Shown one piece after another: positions 10,095-16,715 of a stretch of DNA of 28,672 nucleotides. The stretch covers positions 1-28,672 of the forward strand of contig JAZNAB010000164.1 of NCBI GenBank assembly GCA_045586285.1. The letters run 5' to 3'. Every line of letters starts with the position of its first letter. Within the stretch, counting starts at the first letter, position 1. The DNA comes from Candidatus Flemingiibacterium sp. GTDB taxonomy: Bacteria; Bacillota; Clostridia; Oscillospirales; CAG-272. A program made the translations under genes and the position numbers. The notes below the pieces were generated by a model. The model did not search any database. It was not told the origin of the DNA and saw only the letters and a list, made by a program, of their open reading frames with translations.

Positions 10095-10122
10095 AAAGCC
10101 GACGTTTAAATGTCGGCTTTTT
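10095..10122 (+). terminator. Intrinsic terminator after the amidohydrolase
   Basis: Stem AAAGCCGAC/GTCGGCTTT followed by a T-tract. Confidence 0.8.
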
Positions 10123-10146
10123 ATTTTTCTAGGATAATGCTGCATA

Positions 10147-10175
10147 TTGACATTATCTTTAATTTATGCTACAAT
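10147..10175 (+). promoter_or_regulatory. Near-consensus sigma-A promoter of the TerB/ATPase/helicase operon
   Basis: TTGACA-17-TACAAT with an extended TG. Confidence 0.75.
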
Positions 10176-10210
10176 AAAATGATACGATAATGTAAAATGG
10201 GGGGAAGATT

Positions 10211-11881
10211 ATGAGCGATAAACCGAAAAATCTATCGGATATAGACAATTTTTGGGATCTTAATAGTTTGCTCCCTCAAAAAAGGCCTATTGCTGTGCCT
10301 TCACGCTATGTAAATACAGAAGCTGTGGAGGTGATTGCAAAGAGTGATTCAGATAGAGGCGCAGGATCTATACCAATTCCGGAAAGAAGCGAACAAAGGC
10401 GTATTCTTGACCCTTATCTCATTTATACCCCCAAAAACAAATATATAAGCAGAGTTGAAATATCAAAATGGGATTCAAGGTATAATTTTTATGAAAATTT
10501 CCGCGATGATGCAAAACGGCTTTGGTCAAAGAACGGTGAAAAATGTGATAGAATCCCCTTCTTTTCCTACGTTCCGCAGTACAGTCAGCTTAAATATCCG
10601 CAGCTTAAATGGTATCTTTGGTGGCGTACGAACGTAAGGCACGGAGAATTTGAGGCAACAGATTTTTGCTATGTTTTACTTTATATTTACGAAATACTTA
10701 ACTGCCCTGAGTTGATTTGCGCAAAAGAGGGGTTGAGGCTGCTTTCTGATATTTGGATAAACTACAGAGAAGCACACCCAAGGCTTGATGCATATTTGTC
10801 CGAATGGATTTGTGACTATTGCCTTATAAATCAGCTTGAGTTTCCGACTGAGCTTTTTTATAAACTTCCGGCAAAAGCATTTGAGGGAGCGGCTATTCGT
10901 GAATTCTACTATACTGCGGGCGAAAACAGGGATGAGATTATCGGTATGTTATACAGCGCATCTGATTATGATTACAGAAAATCCAGATATGCGGTTGGCG
11001 CAAATGCAGAGCTGTTTAAAAAGCATATTGAAAATGCATTTGTTCAGGTTTATCAAGAGGTTTTTGCAAATACAAATAAAAAATTGCAGGCGGTGAACCC
11101 CACATACAATATGTCCTGCAATACGTATGAAAATACCGCACGGGAGTATAGACTTGAAAGAAGCGCATACGAGGGAGCTCTGTGTGCATACGATATTAAG
11201 CGGACGATTGCCGTTGAATATATATCATATATGCGCTCTCCGAGGTTTAAATTTTTAGTTACGGATATTGTAAAATACAGTGAAAACCGTATCAGAATAG
11301 CAATCGGAGTCAGGGCAAGACTTAAGGTTGTCGCTCTCGACGAAGCTGTGAGGGTACCTATTGACAGATATTTTGATGAACATTTGCCCATTCCGAAAAA
11401 GCGCAGGGCTGTTTCAGAGGCAGAAGAGCGTGAGAGAATAGAATATGAAAAGCTTTATGAGCCTGCAACAACAGAGTTCAACCTTGACAGAGCTATTCAA
11501 ATTGAAGAAAAATCCTGGGGGACAACTGAGGTGCTGGTGTCTGCCTTTGATGGCTATGGGGATTTTATATCTGAAACGCCAAAGGCTTTGCCGCTCAAAG
11601 TTCCCGAAAAGACTGAAGCTCCAATAGACGCCGACGAATTTTGCCTGTTTGTCAGCGCCCTTGGCGACTTGGAAAAAGAGGCGCTTTCGGGACTTTTGCT
11701 TGGCGATGAAAAGGCGGTTGAATTTGCGGCGAAAAAAAGCGGAACACTTACAGATGCATTTGCTGACAGGATTAATGAAGCTGCTTTTGATATTATTGGC
11801 GACGGTGTTATAGAGATGACAGAAAAGGGCTATCATATTATAAATGAATACAGGGGAGATTTGTCGAAATGGCTGAAATAA
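10211..11881 (+). CDS. TerB-N / TerB-C domain protein
   Basis: FFSYVPQYSQL..QLKWYLWWRTNVR..YVLLYIYEILN resembles TerB_N; C-terminal DAFADRINEAAFDIIGDGVIE resembles TerB_C; context with ATPase and helicase. Confidence 0.8.
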   Translation: MSDKPKNLSDIDNFWDLNSLLPQKRPIAVPSRYVNTEAVEVIAKSDSDRGAGSIPIPERSEQRRILDPYLIYTPKNKYISRVEISKWDSRYNFYENFRDDAKRLWSKNGEKCDRIPFFSYVPQYSQLKYPQLKWYLWWRTNVRHGEFEATDFCYVLLYIYEILNCPELICAKEGLRLLSDIWINYREAHPRLDAYLSEWICDYCLINQLEFPTELFYKLPAKAFEGAAIREFYYTAGENRDEIIGMLYSASDYDYRKSRYAVGANAELFKKHIENAFVQVYQEVFANTNKKLQAVNPTYNMSCNTYENTAREYRLERSAYEGALCAYDIKRTIAVEYISYMRSPRFKFLVTDIVKYSENRIRIAIGVRARLKVVALDEAVRVPIDRYFDEHLPIPKKRRAVSEAEERERIEYEKLYEPATTEFNLDRAIQIEEKSWGTTEVLVSAFDGYGDFISETPKALPLKVPEKTEAPIDADEFCLFVSALGDLEKEALSGLLLGDEKAVEFAAKKSGTLTDAFADRINEAAFDIIGDGVIEMTEKGYHIINEYRGDLSKWLK

Positions 11882-13245
11882 ATGAAAACGCAAGAAAAAT
11901 ACCGAGGCGAATTTTATCAAGTTTGCTTTCATCTATATCTGCAGGTGTTGTTCCGAGAATGGGCGCACCCTATATTGCAATTGGACGAGGCGAAGAAATC
12001 GAAGCACTTTTGGGCGACCTTGAAACTGTTTCGGAGGGCGGCGGCTCTATGCGCTTTATTATAGGCAAATACGGCAGCGGAAAGAGCTTTTTAATTCAGC
12101 TTGTCAGAGGCTTTTGTCTTGAGAGAGGTTTTATCTGCGCTGATGCGGATTTATCGCCTGAACGGAGAATTTGCGGCGCTAAAGGGGTGGGAATTGCCAC
12201 CTATAAGGAGCTTATGAAGAACCTTTCGTCCAAGGCTTCTCTTGACGGCGGTGCACTTGGCGGTATAATTGCAAAATGGCTGTCAGAACTTCAAAGTGAG
12301 GTCGCAAGTACAGGAGTTTTGCCCGGCAGTGAGGAATTTTACGGGCTTATGAATTCAAAAATATATGCTATTACAAGAGAGCTTGAAGCGGAAGTCGGCG
12401 GTTTTGATTTTGCATCGGTGCTTGTAAGTTATTATAATGCCTACATTGAAGAAAATGAAGAACAAAAATCCGCTTGTATTCGTTGGCTTCGTGGAGAATA
12501 CACCACTAAAACCGAGGCAAAGGGCGCAATGGGACGCCATATAGGCGGTATAATTGACGATGATAATTGGTATGAGTATATTAAGCTTTGGGCTGTATTC
12601 TTCAGGAAAATCGGTTACAGAGGTTTTGTGGTTTTTATAGACGAATGTGTTAACCTCTACAAAATTTCCAACCGCATATCAAGAGAAAATAATTATGAAA
12701 AAATACTGTCTATGTTTAATGATACTCTCCAAGGTAAAGCACAGGGACTTGCCCTTATATTTGGAGGAACTCCCCAATTCCTTGAAGACAGCCGGCGCGG
12801 GCTTTTCAGCTATGAAGCACTTAAGAGCCGTCTTTCCGACGGAAAATTTCAAAAAGAGGGATACAAAAACTTAATCGGACCGGTTATCAGATTAAGACGT
12901 TTGTCAGATGAGGAGCTTTTTGCCCTTGTATCAAGAATAACATTGCTTCACGGGCAGAATTACAATTGGACACCGAGGGTTACAAACGAGGATATGGCAA
13001 ACTTTTTGAAAATTTGCCTTGAAAGAGCGGGAGCAGATTCACTTATAACTCCACGAGAAATAATAAGGGATTATATGACGGTTCTTAATATTTTATATCA
13101 AAATCCCGAAACGGATTTTGCGGCAATAGTTAAAAGCCCTGTTGTAAGTTTATCTCACGGTGATAATGACGACGATAAGATTATAGAAACGAAGGAAGAA
13201 GCTAAAAACGCTTTTGGTATCAGCTTTGAGGATATTGAAATATAA
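11869..13245 (+). CDS. DUF2791 / BrxD-like P-loop ATPase
   Basis: AGVVPR..IAIGR..E, Walker A GKYGSGKS, Walker B VVFIDE, RGLFSYEALKSRL; 13-nt overlap with the upstream gene. Confidence 0.85.
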   Translation: MAEINENARKIPRRILSSLLSSISAGVVPRMGAPYIAIGRGEEIEALLGDLETVSEGGGSMRFIIGKYGSGKSFLIQLVRGFCLERGFICADADLSPERRICGAKGVGIATYKELMKNLSSKASLDGGALGGIIAKWLSELQSEVASTGVLPGSEEFYGLMNSKIYAITRELEAEVGGFDFASVLVSYYNAYIEENEEQKSACIRWLRGEYTTKTEAKGAMGRHIGGIIDDDNWYEYIKLWAVFFRKIGYRGFVVFIDECVNLYKISNRISRENNYEKILSMFNDTLQGKAQGLALIFGGTPQFLEDSRRGLFSYEALKSRLSDGKFQKEGYKNLIGPVIRLRRLSDEELFALVSRITLLHGQNYNWTPRVTNEDMANFLKICLERAGADSLITPREIIRDYMTVLNILYQNPETDFAAIVKSPVVSLSHGDNDDDKIIETKEEAKNAFGISFEDIEI

Positions 13246-13262
13246 CTAAAAAGGGGTACATT

Positions 13263-15497
13263 ATGACGGATAAGGATATTTTTTATAGGTTTTCTCCTTT
13301 TATTCAGGAATATATCTATAATAACGGCTGGCAGGAGCTAAGGGAAGTACAAGCCTTAGCTGCTAAGGTTATTTTTGAGTCAGATGACAACCTACTTTTG
13401 ACTTCCGGAACGGCATCGGGAAAAACCGAGGCGGCGTTTTTTCCTATTATTTCAGAACTTTACGAGAATATGCCGAGCAGTATAGGAGTTTTGTATATAG
13501 CCCCTCTTAAGAGCCTTATAAATGACCAATTTTCAAGACTTGATGAGATTCTTGACCTTTCGGGAATACCTGTGTTCCATTGGCACGGCGATGTTGCAGC
13601 GTCACACAAAAATAAGCTTCTTAAAAATCCTTCCGGTATACTTCAGATTACACCTGAATCGCTTGAGAGTATGCTTATGAATCGCTCTAACGATATTGTA
13701 AGGCTTTTCGGGGATTTGCGGTATGTTGTCATAGATGAGATACATACAATGACAGGTACGGACAGAGGAAATCAAATTATCTGTCAGCTTGTACGTATTG
13801 CAAGACTTATCGGTCACGAACCGAGGCGCATCGGACTTTCGGCAACTGTTGGTGACAGAGAGATTGCAGCTCAGTTTTTAGGAGGAGGTACAAACAGACA
13901 GACGGTTGCTCCAGAAACTTCTGAGGGGGTTGTCAAATGGAAGCTTGGGATAGAGCATTTTTACCTTGATGGTGGACAAGCAGAAGACATATGTTTACCC
14001 CCCAAAAATGCTTCTTTGCCTTATAAAACAGAAATTGATCCGAGATATGAATATATCTATGAATGTGTAAAAAACAAAAAAGCCATTATTTTCTCAAATT
14101 CCCGTGAGGAAACAGAGTATGTAACGGCTACTATGCGCCAAATTGCCGAAAACAGAGGCGATGAGGACAGATTTTTAATACATCACGGCAACCTTTCCGC
14201 ATCTATCAGAGAGGAAACTGAGCTGAAGATGAAAGATGACGAGCACAAAGAGGTTGCTTGTGCTACTGTAACAATGGAGCTTGGTATTGATATCGGACGG
14301 CTTGAAAGGGTTATACAAAACGATGCACCAAACTCGGTGTCAGGTTTTTTGCAGAGGCTTGGTAGGTCGGGAAGACGTGGCGCTCCGCCCGAAATGATGA
14401 TGGTGTTCGGCGAGGAAAATCCTATTCCGAATACACCGCTTCCAGAGCTTATACCCTGGGGACTTTTACGGGCGATCGCTATAGTGCAGCTTTATCTTGA
14501 AGAAAAATTTATAGAGCCGCCATTTACCAAAAAGCTACCATACAGCCTTGCTTTTCAGCAAACTCTGAGTATTCTTGCATCATCCGGAGAGCTTATGCCA
14601 AAGGTACTTGCCGAGAGGGTTTTGAGTTTGCCGCCTTTTTTGCATATTCCAAAAGAGGATTACAAGGCTATGCTTGTAAGTATGCTAAAAAATGAATTTC
14701 TTGAGCTTACCGAGGACGGCGGAATTATTATCGGTCTTCGTGGCGAGAAGCTTATAAACAGCTTTAAATTTTATGCTGTTTTCAAGGACAGTGAGGACTA
14801 TACAGTCCGGTGTGAGTCGGACGAAATCGGCACTATAACCGCACCGCTGCCTATTGGTGACCGTTTTGCCCTTGCAGGCAGAGTGTGGGAAGTTTCAGAG
14901 CTTGACATTCCAAGGCATCTTATTTATGTTAAATCCGTAAAGGGTAAGATGGAAGTATCTTGGCCAGGCGATTTTGGTGAAATTCACACACGTATTCTTG
15001 AGCGTATGCGGGATATTCTCTCTGAGGATACTGTTTATCCCTACCTCAAGCCCAATGCAAAAAACAGGATTCAAGCTACTCGTGCACTTGCTAAAAGCAC
15101 GGGAATTGCCGGTCATTCTCTTGTGTGCCTTGGCGGGTATACATGGTGCTTGTTCCCTTGGCTTGGCACACGGTCATTCCGCACCATGCGTAAGTTTATT
15201 TTAAGTAATGCTCACCGATTCGGAATTTCGGGTATGGAATTTGAAGGCTGTTATTATATGACATTTAAAATGGAATATGCAAATGGGAAAGAGCTTATAT
15301 CTGCTCTTTGCGATATTGTACGGCGTGAGGGAGTGGACTGCACTCGTCTTGTTGGGAAAAGTGAAGCTCCTGCATTTGAAAAATATGACGATTATCTTCC
15401 CTCGGAGCTTTTACGGCGGCAGTATTATACAGACAAGCTTCGCCCCGATGAAGTTGAAAAGCGGCTTTTTGATATATTAAACGAATTCAAAGATTAA
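13263..15497 (+). CDS. Lhr-like SF2 DEAD/DEAH helicase (BrxHI-like)
   Basis: SGTASGKT, YIAPLKSLINDQ, TPESLE, DEIH, LSAT, HHGNLS, TMELGID, QRLGRSGR. Confidence 0.9.
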   Translation: MTDKDIFYRFSPFIQEYIYNNGWQELREVQALAAKVIFESDDNLLLTSGTASGKTEAAFFPIISELYENMPSSIGVLYIAPLKSLINDQFSRLDEILDLSGIPVFHWHGDVAASHKNKLLKNPSGILQITPESLESMLMNRSNDIVRLFGDLRYVVIDEIHTMTGTDRGNQIICQLVRIARLIGHEPRRIGLSATVGDREIAAQFLGGGTNRQTVAPETSEGVVKWKLGIEHFYLDGGQAEDICLPPKNASLPYKTEIDPRYEYIYECVKNKKAIIFSNSREETEYVTATMRQIAENRGDEDRFLIHHGNLSASIREETELKMKDDEHKEVACATVTMELGIDIGRLERVIQNDAPNSVSGFLQRLGRSGRRGAPPEMMMVFGEENPIPNTPLPELIPWGLLRAIAIVQLYLEEKFIEPPFTKKLPYSLAFQQTLSILASSGELMPKVLAERVLSLPPFLHIPKEDYKAMLVSMLKNEFLELTEDGGIIIGLRGEKLINSFKFYAVFKDSEDYTVRCESDEIGTITAPLPIGDRFALAGRVWEVSELDIPRHLIYVKSVKGKMEVSWPGDFGEIHTRILERMRDILSEDTVYPYLKPNAKNRIQATRALAKSTGIAGHSLVCLGGYTWCLFPWLGTRSFRTMRKFILSNAHRFGISGMEFEGCYYMTFKMEYANGKELISALCDIVRREGVDCTRLVGKSEAPAFEKYDDYLPSELLRRQYYTDKLRPDEVEKRLFDILNEFKD

Positions 15498-15742
15498 TCC
15501 CCTCTTTTTTTCTCTCTGGCGGCTATATCGAAAAGTAGCGCACCGCCTACGATAAGTAAAAGGGACATTGCAAAATGCTCCATCATATAGCTGAATTGAA
15601 GGCTCAGCCTGGCGGCGTCGTATTCTCTGAGTCCCGCTCTGTAGGCTACTATGTATATTAACATTATTGTTACTGCTGCAAGTCCCCATTTCAGAATTTT
15701 TAGTGAAACGGGCGACAGCTTGTTTATTTTATTCTTTTTCAT
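15494..15742 (-). CDS. Small hypothetical two-TM membrane protein
   Basis: SD AGGAG, basic N-terminus, two hydrophobic segments; own TGG-TATAAT at 15781-15773. Confidence 0.7.
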   Translation of the reverse strand: MKKNKINKLSPVSLKILKWGLAAVTIMLIYIVAYRAGLREYDAARLSLQFSYMMEHFAMSLLLIVGGALLFDIAAREKKRGD

Positions 15743-15827: not shown

Positions 15828-16715
15828 TTGTTGGAAGAAACGCTTTATGAAAGGGTGACTTTTAAGTTGAATAATTCCAGGCTTGGTATGTCAAGTGCAT
15901 GTTTTTATCCGGATGAAACGCTTGAGGCTGTTAAGCACTGTATAGATCTTGGGTTTGAAAACATCGAAATATTTATAAATACGTTCTCAGAACTTGAAAA
16001 ACCGTATCTTGATAAAATTTCAAGGTGCTGTTTAGAATCGGGAACCCGTGTTGTAGCAATTCACCCTTTTACATCGGGTTTTGAGTACTTATTTTTCTTT
16101 TCGGCATATAAAAAAAGAGCAAAAGAGTCGGCGGAGTTGTATAGAAAGTATTTTCACGCTGCTGCATACCTTGGGGCAGATTACAGTATTTTGCACGGCG
16201 ATGCTCTTAAAGCTCCCTTTTTCGGACTTGATAATTACTGCGAAGTGTTGGAAATGCTTTCGCAAACAGCTAAGGAGGAGGGGGTTATGTTGATTCACGA
16301 GAACGTATCTACTGCCAGAGCAGGCAATCCTGAATTTATGAAAGCTCTTCGTGAAAAAATCGGTAAGGGAAAGCTTAAATATGCTTTTGACATAAAGCAG
16401 GCTGCAAGAGGCGGATATTCTCCTTTTGATATGCTTGAGGCGATGGGTGATGATATTGTTCACGTTCATATTAATGATTGGCTTGACGGGGAATGTAAAC
16501 TTGCATATGCCGGAGGACTTGACCTTGACGGTATTATTTCAAGACTTGAGGGCGGCGGATATTCGGGCAAGTATATTGTGGAAGTTTACAAAAAGAATTT
16601 TTCAAGGGACGATGAAATTTCTGTTTGCAAGAAAAAAATTGAAGAAAAACTTTTGAAGATTAAGGCAAATTTTATACAAAAAGAAACGCAAAATATCAGC
16701 AATATTACCAATTGA
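15828..16715 (+). CDS. Sugar phosphate isomerase/epimerase (xylose-isomerase-like/AP endonuclease 2 TIM barrel)
   Basis: Metal-site pattern EIF...HENV...FDIKQA...HVHIND...IVEVY; SD GGGAG before a TTG start. Confidence 0.8.
   Translation: MLEETLYERVTFKLNNSRLGMSSACFYPDETLEAVKHCIDLGFENIEIFINTFSELEKPYLDKISRCCLESGTRVVAIHPFTSGFEYLFFFSAYKKRAKESAELYRKYFHAAAYLGADYSILHGDALKAPFFGLDNYCEVLEMLSQTAKEEGVMLIHENVSTARAGNPEFMKALREKIGKGKLKYAFDIKQAARGGYSPFDMLEAMGDDIVHVHINDWLDGECKLAYAGGLDLDGIISRLEGGGYSGKYIVEVYKKNFSRDDEISVCKKKIEEKLLKIKANFIQKETQNISNITN

What the first reader, a model, noticed from the sequence alone, without database searches (positions are those of the whole stretch)
10147..15497. Stand-alone TerB-N/C + BrxD-like ATPase + Lhr helicase module: candidate DNA defence or repair system
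Seen: a self-contained 5.3 kb unit, insulated upstream by a terminator, with its own near-consensus promoter. It is tightly coupled (13-nt overlap, 17-nt gap) and its Walker A/B and SF2 motifs are intact. Known: DUF2791 ATPases (BrxD) and Lhr-like helicases (BrxHI) occur as a pair in type 2 and type 6 BREX/Pgl systems. TerB_N/TerB_C proteins were linked to such ATPase-helicase pairs by comparative genomics of Ter systems. Seen: no pglX, pglZ, methylase or nuclease is present here. Inference: a minimal three-component machine in which TerB-N/C is the sensor or scaffold, the ATPase a loader and the helicase the effector, acting in anti-phage/anti-plasmid defence or DNA-damage response. I know of no experimental characterisation of this stand-alone form. 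Its housekeeping neighbourhood suggests domestication rather than recent transfer.
Basis: partly seen in the sequence, partly recalled or inferred. Interest (0 to 1): 0.8.

Follow-up and report, generated by a model that had tools for sequence, protein, structure and literature searches.

The report
Chromosomally fixed Shango anti-phage operon
These three genes are an intact copy of the already named and tested Shango anti-phage system (SngA, SngB, SngC) in an uncultured gut Clostridia bacterium. It is ordinary in kind and unusual only in being inherited like a core gene set in this lineage.

Summary
In detail: three co-directional genes (10211-11881, 11869-13245, 13263-15497) with a 13-nt overlap and a 17-nt gap. 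They lie behind a TTGACA-17-TGnTACAAT promoter, which follows the upstream gene's terminator. The Walker A/B and DEIH motifs are intact.

The claim that this form is uncharacterised is wrong. All three proteins match the PADLOC models SngA, SngB and SngC over nearly their full length (E 8e-48, 1e-166, 3e-237), far better than BrxD or BrxHI. This is Shango, shown to defend E. coli and P. aeruginosa PA14 against phages in 2022-2023. Its mechanism is still unknown.

This scan has already reported Shango on other DNA many times, including "chromosomally fixed" copies in gut Clostridia.

- The operon, with a conserved promoter, sits at a syntenic core-genome site. The helicase was found in 23 of 24 species genomes of the genus (Ca. 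Flemingiibacterium).
- In a 301-genome draw of the order, SngB and SngC co-occur in 60 genomes, against 2 with each alone.
- In about 13 of those 60 genomes sngC is unlinked from sngAB (103 kb away in one genome). "Helicase-less" pairs are therefore probably split systems.
- Complex prediction gives weak support for a conserved SngA helix (405-443) docking on SngB.

The parts
10095..10120 (+). Terminator-like hairpin with T-run that ends the upstream amidohydrolase gene and insulates the operon
   Evidence: Pattern scan: 11-pair stem, 5 G-C pairs, T-rich tail; sequence read.
10147..10175 (+). Sigma-70-type promoter with extended -10 (TTGACA, 17 nt, TGcTACAAT)
   Evidence: 11/12 match. An 11/12 promoter of the same form was found within 160 nt upstream of sngA in all 12 genus loci examined.
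10199..10207 (+). Ribosome-binding site GGGGGGAAG of sngA
   Evidence: Read directly from the sequence.
10211..11881 (+). sngA: TerB_N/TerB_C protein, 556 aa, no canonical TerB (PF05099) domain. The first ~64 residues are disordered, the body is helical and the C-terminal ~75 residues are winged-helix-like.
   Evidence: Pfam TerB_N 5.9e-19 and TerB_C 2.7e-8. PADLOC SngA 7.8e-48, residues 77-555 on model positions 81-527 of 528. AF2 model pLDDT 80.4. Only residues 481-555 find structural neighbours, the LysR-type wHTH domains.
11869..13245 (+). sngB: DUF2791/BrxC_BrxD-family P-loop ATPase, 458 aa. Its start overlaps the end of sngA by 13 nt.
   Evidence: PADLOC SngB 1e-166 against BrxD 3.8e-42. 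Pfam PF10923 5.8e-151. NCBIfam BrxD equivalog 143.7 bits, below the cut-off of 350. Walker A and B intact.
13263..15497 (+). sngC: SF2 DExH helicase with the four-domain Lhr-core fold, 744 aa
   Evidence: PADLOC SngC 2.8e-237 against BrxHI 1.8e-122. Motifs I, II, III and VI intact. AF2 model pLDDT 85.9. Best PDB match is M. smegmatis Lhr-core 5v9x, E 5e-30, TM 0.71/0.69 over the whole length.
15494..15742 (-). Convergent 82-codon gene for a small protein with two hydrophobic segments. It overlaps the sngC stop codon. Membership in the system is not shown.
   Evidence: Translation. It has its own promoter-like site at 15801-15773. It was found by tblastn at 35-55% identity in more than 14 genus loci, and in every locus whose coordinates I compared it directly follows sngC, including loci where the next gene is displaced. 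No significant Pfam family.

Best explanation
The locus is a complete Shango anti-phage defence operon, sngA-sngB-sngC, transcribed from its own conserved promoter.

Shown here:
- Full-length membership of all three proteins in the Shango families.
- Intact ATPase and helicase motifs.
- An Lhr-core fold for SngC.
- Near-obligate co-occurrence of the three genes across genomes.

Inferred mechanism:
- SngA and SngB form a sensor/switch complex. A conserved SngA helix (residues 405-443) docks beside the SngB P-loop.
- SngA is the fast-evolving, target-facing part. Its TerB_C end is winged-helix-like.
- On sensing infection, probably through a phage nucleic-acid structure or a phage protein, ATP-bound SngB recruits or licenses SngC.
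- By analogy with Lhr-core, SngC would be a 3'-to-5' translocase and helicase. It would unwind or strip phage replication or transcription intermediates and so block phage replication.
- No nuclease is encoded, so any killing step must be helicase-driven or use host nucleases.

In this lineage the system is a long-resident, vertically inherited chromosomal module and not a mobile island.
For: PADLOC matches: SngA 7.8e-48, SngB 1e-166, SngC 2.8e-237. All cover nearly the full length and beat BrxD (3.8e-42) and BrxHI (1.8e-122).

Literature: Shango is a TerB-like protein, an ATPase and a DEAD/DEAH helicase, in that order in PA14. It gave a 10-100-fold drop in efficiency of plating against several phage families (PMC10250203) and was validated independently in E. 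coli (10.1101/2022.05.11.491447).

Motifs are intact. The SngC model matches Lhr-core 5v9x at TM 0.71.

Co-occurrence in a 301-genome draw of the order: SngB in 62 genomes, SngC in 62, both in 60, and SngA directly upstream of SngB in 60.

SngA-SngB complex prediction: ipSAE 0.60 against a best control of 0.00, rated 'weak support'. That mark was reached by 58 of 80 solved complexes and 2 of 110 mismatched pairs. The predicted SngA interface holds the invariant residues A428, E432 and T439 and the near-invariant Y416, S435, W436 and L442, inside an otherwise variable linker.

sngA and sngB stay adjacent even where sngC has moved away.

sngA has 3-4 times the non-synonymous divergence of sngB and sngC: median dN 0.33 against 0.12 and 0.09.

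Outside this lineage, SngB relatives lie on 686 plasmid records, 540 of them predicted conjugative. In the best hits they lie next to TerB_N and DEAD/DEAH helicase genes. This fits a defence system.
Against: No phage assay exists for this copy or for any Clostridia copy. The host is an uncultured organism known only from an 80%-complete metagenome-assembled genome.

The mechanism of Shango is unknown in the literature as of 2025 (10.1101/2025.09.30.679545). No relative of SngA or SngB has a solved structure detectable by sequence.

The context is not a defence island. The flanks are an aconitase-family hydratase, an M3 peptidase, an amidohydrolase, NrdD and transporters.

The helicase is present in 23 of 24 species genomes of the genus. 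That is atypical for a defence system and would also fit a housekeeping DNA or RNA transaction.

The complex prediction is only weak support. Synonymous sites are saturated (dS above 1.4), so the dN/dS values are unreliable.
Confidence: 0.9

Rival explanations
1. A domesticated Shango-derived module that now serves a housekeeping function, such as DNA repair, replication-transcription conflict resolution or RNA:DNA hybrid removal, rather than or besides phage defence.
For: The helicase was found in 23 of 24 species genomes of the genus. The downstream flank (82-codon gene, TIM-barrel gene, often NrdD) is syntenic across the genus, and family-level synteny exists on the sngA side (TruB/NrnA-like, M3 peptidase). 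In other genomes the flanks are core genes: HPF, glycerol kinase, UppP, FtsK, MutS2. sngB and sngC diverge only slightly faster than NrdD (70-79% against 79-86% identity). Synonymous sites are saturated, so retention is old. sngC can be unlinked by about 103 kb and is still retained. The nearest solved helicases are the repair enzymes Lhr and MrfA.
Against: The trio is missing from about 79% of the genomes sampled in the order and from 7 of 17 other sampled genomes of the same family, all 97-100% complete. It is therefore dispensable. sngA evolves 3-4 times faster than its partners, as expected for an arms-race sensor. Relatives ride on conjugative plasmids elsewhere. The family was validated as anti-phage.
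Confidence: 0.07
2. A remnant or accessory module (BrxD plus BrxHI) of a type 2 or type 6 BREX/Pgl system whose core genes lie elsewhere or were lost.
For: Pfam BrxC_BrxD 5.8e-151. The PADLOC BrxD and BrxHI models also match. SngC, BrxHI, DruE and DpdJ form one SF2 clade (PMC12278908).
Against: The Shango models score far higher than the BREX models (553 against 143 bits; 788 against 408 bits). The NCBIfam BrxD equivalog scores 143.7 bits, below its cut-off of 350. PglZ was not found in the genome, which holds only one BrxC_BrxD gene. A TerB_N/TerB_C gene is translationally coupled to the ATPase, as in Shango.
Confidence: 0.01
3. An anti-plasmid or anti-conjugation barrier rather than an anti-phage system.
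For: No nuclease or abortive-infection toxin is encoded, and helicase-ATPase systems can act on any invading DNA. In E. coli, Shango lies in genomic islands next to the anti-plasmid system ApsAB (PMC11096173).
Against: Published assays show anti-phage activity, and no plasmid phenotype has been reported in the papers I read. Shango relatives are themselves carried on conjugative plasmids.
Confidence: 0.02

Closest known systems
Shango (SngA/SngB/SngC) of P. aeruginosa PA14 (PA14_RS11735-45; PMC10250203) and E. coli (Millman et al. 2022, 10.1101/2022.05.11.491447)
   Same: Same three families in the same order: a TerB-like protein, an ATPase and a DEAD/DEAH helicase. All three match the Shango HMMs over nearly their full length. 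No nuclease, methylase or other partner is present.
   Different: Host and context differ. The published copies lie in variable defence hotspots or islands of Proteobacteria. This copy lies at a fixed core-genome site of an uncultured gut Clostridia genus. In this genus a conserved small convergent membrane-protein gene abuts sngC. No assay has been done for this copy.
BrxD plus BrxHI of type 2 / type 6 BREX
   Same: A homologous DUF2791 ATPase and a helicase of the same SF2 clade, encoded as neighbours.
   Different: No PglX, PglZ or other BREX core genes. The score lies below the BrxD equivalog cut-off. A TerB_N/TerB_C partner is present instead.
Lhr-core (M. smegmatis Lhr 1-856, PDB 5v9x) and MrfA/YprA (PDB 6znp)
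   Same: Whole-length structural match of SngC to Lhr-core: E 5e-30, TM 0.71. The best sequence matches in the PDB are these two helicases. SngC probably shares 3'-to-5' translocation on single strands; this rests on established Lhr biochemistry and is not tested here.
   Different: Only 21% identity. All NCBIfam Lhr-type equivalogs score far below their cut-offs, for example 203 against 849 bits. SngC lacks the Lhr C-terminal half and the MrfA DUF1998 zinc domain. It is genetically tied to SngA and SngB.
Split or 'helicase-less' Shango pairs noted earlier in this scan (e1-2320006, e1-2110460)
   Same: Same sngAB pair in gut Clostridia. The SngB of G041 shares 37 of 180 short words with the protein of e1-2320006.
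   Different: In all five such genomes I tested, a Shango-clade helicase is present elsewhere. In G041 it lies about 103 kb away on the same contig. The pair is therefore probably not helicase-less.

Membership tests
Shango (SngABC) | SngA: TerB_N/TerB_C-type protein matching the SngA model | tested here: met
   PADLOC PDLC03958 7.8e-48, residues 77-555 on model positions 81-527 of 528. Pfam TerB_N and TerB_C both above their cut-offs.
Shango (SngABC) | SngB: DUF2791-type P-loop ATPase matching the SngB model better than BrxD, with Walker A and B | tested here: met
   PDLC03959 1e-166 (553 bits) against BrxD 3.8e-42 (143 bits). GKYGSGKS and VVFIDE are present.
Shango (SngABC) | SngC: SF2 DEAD/DEAH helicase matching the SngC model, with its motifs intact | tested here: met
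   PDLC03960 2.8e-237 (788 bits) against BrxHI 408 bits. Motifs I, II (DEIH), III and VI are present.
Shango (SngABC) | All three genes together in one co-directional cluster in the order A-B-C | tested here: met
   Coordinates: 13-nt overlap and 17-nt gap. The PA14 order is TerB-like, ATPase, helicase.
Shango (SngABC) | Protection against phage that depends on the system | not testable with these tools
   Published only for the E. coli and P. aeruginosa copies.
BREX type 2/6 (BrxD, BrxHI accessory pair) | Presence of the core genes PglZ and PglX | tested here: not met
   No PF08665 (PglZ) match in the window's genome, which is 80% complete. None of the annotated flanking genes in the window is a methyltransferase or phosphatase. 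PglX itself was not searched genome-wide.
BREX type 2/6 (BrxD, BrxHI accessory pair) | ATPase reaches the BrxD equivalog threshold | tested here: not met
   NF033438 scores 143.7 bits against a cut-off of 350.
Lhr / Lhr-core helicases | Four-domain Lhr-core fold (RecA1, RecA2, winged helix, domain 4) | tested here: met
   Foldseek against 5v9x_A: E 5e-30, TMq 0.71, TMt 0.69, 817 aligned columns.
Lhr / Lhr-core helicases | Sequence membership (NCBIfam equivalogs for Lhr-type and ligase-associated DEXH helicases) | tested here: not met
   NF010338 203 bits against 849; TIGR04121 200 against 850; NF007284 116 against 1496.
Ter (tellurite-resistance) TerB proteins | Canonical TerB domain (PF05099) | tested here: not met
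   The Pfam scan at E up to 0.01 returns only TerB_N and TerB_C for gene 1.

The most novel reading that the evidence does not exclude
In this order of gut Clostridia, Shango behaves as an ancient, vertically inherited core-genome module. Its helicase gene can be separated from sngAB by 100 kb or more and still be co-retained. If so, many 'helicase-less Shango' pairs and 'orphan Lhr-like helicases' are halves of one split system that co-localisation-based tools (PADLOC, DefenseFinder) would miss. The module may also have acquired a housekeeping nucleic-acid-surveillance role beyond phage defence.
Probability: 0.2. Interest if true: 0.5.

Novelty: new member of a known kind. Interest (0 to 1): 0.2.

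Why it matters
As an instance it matters little. It is one more copy of a named defence system, and this scan has reported such copies repeatedly. Three by-products are useful.

1. The near-perfect co-occurrence of sngA, sngB and sngC in a 301-genome sample is strong comparative evidence that the three proteins work as one machine. It holds even where sngC is unlinked.

2. Split systems show that detection rules based on co-localisation undercount Shango. They also show that earlier 'helicase-less' readings need re-checking.

3. The predicted docking of a conserved SngA helix (405-443) beside the SngB P-loop, together with the Lhr-core fold of SngC, gives concrete and cheap mutational targets for a system whose mechanism is still unknown.

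Tried and rejected
- BREX remnant: rejected. PglZ was not found, the BrxD cut-off is not met and the BREX HMMs score lower.
- Fourth component, first candidate: the downstream xylose-isomerase-like TIM-barrel gene (15828-16715). It is syntenic within the genus only and absent next to the triads of other genera. It resembles sugar-phosphate epimerases and dehydratases very weakly. I rejected it as part of the system.
- Fold search of the SngA model against the PDB and AlphaFold/Swiss-Prot: no match for the main body; only the C-terminal winged-helix-like part finds neighbours.
- PDB sequence searches with SngA and SngB: nothing.
- dN/dS among genus members: synonymous sites are saturated (dS 1.4-3.3), so only the dN ratios are usable.
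- Phage records: no SngB relative at E up to 1e-20.
- Literature search for a Shango mechanism or structure (2023-2026): none found in the held library.
- Loss of partners in the 'solo' SngC-like helicases: rejected after finding sngAB elsewhere in 5 of 5 such genomes.
- The SngA-SngB complex prediction passed only as 'weak support' (0.60 against a best control of 0.00). I use it as a lead, not as proof.
Full report
**1. Observation**

The window carries three co-directional ORFs at 10211-11881 (556 aa), 11869-13245 (458 aa) and 13263-15497 (744 aa).

Upstream, a hairpin with a T-run at 10095-10120 ends the amidohydrolase gene. A TTGACA-17-TGcTACAAT promoter lies at 10147-10175, and a GGGGGGAAG ribosome-binding site precedes the ATG. 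Consensus scans alone are weak evidence: 16 promoter-like sites were found where 14 are expected by chance. However, an 11/12 promoter with the extended -10 lies upstream of sngA in all 12 loci of the genus that I examined, so this promoter is phylogenetically conserved.

GC content of the operon (0.38-0.43) does not differ from the flanks.

**2. Identity**

- Gene 1: TerB_N and TerB_C.
- Gene 2: BrxC_BrxD/DUF2791, E 5.8e-151.
- Gene 3: DEAD plus Helicase_C.

PADLOC's models give the decisive result:

| Protein | Shango model | BREX model |
|---|---|---|
| Gene 1 | SngA, 7.8e-48, residues 77-555 on model 81-527 of 528 | none |
| Gene 2 | SngB, 1e-166, 553 bits | BrxD, 3.8e-42, 143 bits |
| Gene 3 | SngC, 2.8e-237, 788 bits | BrxHI, 408 bits |

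NCBIfam agrees that these are not BREX or Lhr orthologues. The BrxD equivalog scores 143.7 bits against a cut-off of 350, and every Lhr-type equivalog is far below its cut-off.

The catalytic motifs are intact:
- SngB: Walker A GKYGSGKS and Walker B VVFIDE.
- SngC: motif I GTASGKT, motif II DEIH, motif III SAT and motif VI QRLGRSGR.

The 80%-complete genome holds one copy of each family. PglZ was not found.

**3. What is known**

Shango was named in Millman et al. 2022 (10.1101/2022.05.11.491447) and in Johnson et al. 2023 (PMC10250203).
- In PA14 the genes run TerB-like, ATPase, DEAD/DEAH helicase.
- Expressed in PAO1, the system lowered plating of several phage families 10-100-fold and protected liquid cultures.
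- The E. coli copy gave about 10-fold protection against two phages.

The mechanism is still open. A 2025 preprint states that it is unclear how TerB-domain defence proteins act (10.1101/2025.09.30.679545). My literature searches found no structural or mechanistic paper. The PDB holds no sequence relative of SngA or SngB.

SngC groups with BrxHI, DruE and DpdJ in one SF2 clade (PMC12278908).

**4. Structure-based additions**

*SngC.* The AlphaFold2 model (pLDDT 85.9) matches M. smegmatis Lhr-core (5v9x) over its whole length: E 5e-30, TM 0.71/0.69. MrfA (6znp) is next. 'Lhr-like' is correct at the level of fold. SngC is not an Lhr orthologue and lacks the Lhr C-terminal half.

*SngA.* The model (pLDDT 80.4) has a disordered first ~64 residues. 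Its helical body has no convincing neighbour in the PDB or in AlphaFold/Swiss-Prot. The TerB_C end (481-555) resembles LysR-type winged-helix domains. The Pfam scan found no canonical TerB domain.

*SngA-SngB complex.* The prediction for SngA(66-556) with SngB scored ipSAE 0.60 against 0.00 for the best of three controls. The tool rates this as weak support: the mark was reached by 58 of 80 solved complexes and 2 of 110 mismatched pairs.
- The predicted SngA interface, residues 405-443, contains the invariant A428, E432 and T439 and the near-invariant Y416, S435, W436 and L442.
- These sit inside an otherwise poorly conserved linker.
- The SngB side lies around the P-loop: residues 33-48, 65-82, 302-309 and 341-356.

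I treat this interface as a testable lead.

**5. Evolutionary context**

NCBI record titles of the closest loci place the genome in Candidatus Flemingiibacterium, among uncultured gut and rumen Clostridia.

*Within the genus.*
- SngC was found in 23 of 24 other species genomes, at 71-77% identity.
- The neighbourhood is syntenic across the genus: sngABC, an 82-codon convergent gene, a xylose-isomerase-like TIM-barrel gene and often NrdD.

*On the sngA side.* Synteny with TruB/NrnA-like genes and with the M3 peptidase extends to other genera of the family.

*Identity to the window's proteins among genus members*:

| Protein | Identity |
|---|---|
| SngB | 74-79% |
| SngC | 70-76% |
| NrdD | 79-87% |
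| SngA | 42-50% |

Median dN is 0.33 for sngA, 0.12 for sngB and 0.09 for sngC. Synonymous sites are saturated. The operon is therefore old, vertically inherited and under purifying selection, with sngA the fast-evolving member. It also repeats what earlier reports of this scan said about related genomes.

*Elsewhere.* SngB relatives lie on 686 plasmid records, 540 of them predicted conjugative. The best hits lie next to TerB_N and DEAD/DEAH helicase genes. No phage record matched.

**6. Co-occurrence and split systems**

In an even draw of 301 genomes (153 genera) of the order, the three models gave the following:

| Model and threshold | Genomes with a match |
|---|---|
| SngB (E up to 1e-80) | 62 |
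| SngC (E up to 1e-120) | 62 |
| SngA (E up to 1e-10) | 61 |

| Combination | Genomes |
|---|---|
| SngB and SngC together | 60 |
| SngB without SngC (fragmented assemblies) | 2 |
| SngC without SngB | 2 |
| All three | 58 |

SngA, wherever detected together with SngB, lies directly upstream of it.

Of the 60 genomes with both SngB and SngC:
- About 43 have the two genes adjacent on one contig.
- About 13 have them on different contigs, spread over four families.
- One has them 8.7 kb apart.
- Four are ambiguous because the genes lie at contig ends.

I first met these cases as about 25 'solo' SngC-like helicases, 63-71% identical to the window's, flanked by unrelated housekeeping genes. On a helicase tree they are nested among triad helicases. 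All five such genomes that I tested carry an adjacent sngA-sngB pair elsewhere. In G041 both loci lie on one 384,531-bp contig, about 103 kb apart. The pair there sits between HPF and glycerol kinase on one side and UppP, FtsK and MutS2 on the other.

The SngB of G041 is close to the protein of the earlier report e1-2320006, sharing 37 of 180 short words. That report concluded the helicase was lost. My data suggest that it is unlinked, not lost.

**7. Verdict**

This is an intact Shango operon: a new member of a known kind, and ordinary for this scan.

The most likely mechanism, inferred and not shown, has three steps:
- An SngA-SngB sensor/switch complex detects infection.
- It then licenses the Lhr-core-type SngC helicase.
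- SngC acts on phage nucleic acids.

The main rival is a housekeeping role for a domesticated module. The core-like inheritance and the split loci favour it. Three facts argue against it: the trio is missing from most genomes of the order, sngA evolves fast, and relatives are carried on plasmids.

Interest is low for the instance. Interest is moderate for the split-system observation and for the SngA-SngB interface lead.

Noticed in passing
window 15494-15742 (- strand): An 82-codon convergent gene encodes a small protein with two hydrophobic segments. It overlaps the sngC stop codon by 4 nt and has its own promoter-like site (15801-15773) and ribosome-binding site. It is found at 35-55% identity in more than 14 genus loci and directly follows sngC in those I checked, even where insertions displace the next gene. 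It matches no Pfam family and was not detected next to the triads of other genera. Whether it works with Shango is unknown.
   Followed up: partly
G041:C7 about 141.2-144.3 kb (sngAB, L100) and about 246.4-248.6 kb (sngC, L071/L099); also G078, G104, G160, G254, G064, G090, G172, G177, G209, G225, G255, G295: Split Shango: sngAB and sngC are unlinked but co-retained in about 13 of the 60 genomes of the order sample that hold both. This recurs in four families. Detection tools based on co-localisation would miss these systems, and earlier 'helicase-less Shango' notes may be such cases.
   Followed up: partly
window 13971-14024 (SngC residues 237-254) and the same spot in G002, G018, G020, G022, G023, G024: A disordered surface loop of SngC between the two RecA-like domains (pLDDT below 50). 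In six genus genomes the match to the window's SngC breaks at this spot while the reading frame stays open and is about 30-100 residues longer overall, which suggests a variable insertion site here.
   Followed up: no
G151:C4:165934-170390 and G287:C52:6354-10800: Tandem second copies of sngC lie directly after the first. The G151 copy is a pseudogene with 8 stop codons and the G287 copy is intact. G224 has a partial linked sngC match (model positions 5-359, 369-aa open frame) plus a full-length unlinked copy, possibly an intermediate on the way to a split system.
   Followed up: no
window 10140-10200 and upstream of sngA in L019-L028, L076, L079: Besides the -35 and extended -10 elements, an A/T-rich stretch of the form AATAATATAATA lies directly after the -10 in most genus loci. 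Some loci have a TTGACA...TGTCAA palindrome over the -35. These could be an operator, but no regulator gene lies in the operon.
   Followed up: no
window 15828-16715: A xylose-isomerase-like TIM-barrel gene (Pfam AP_endonuc_2, 1e-19) lies downstream of sngC throughout the genus but not beside the triads of other genera. It has only very weak similarity to sugar-phosphate epimerases and dehydratases. I judge it a syntenic neighbour and not a system part.
   Followed up: partly
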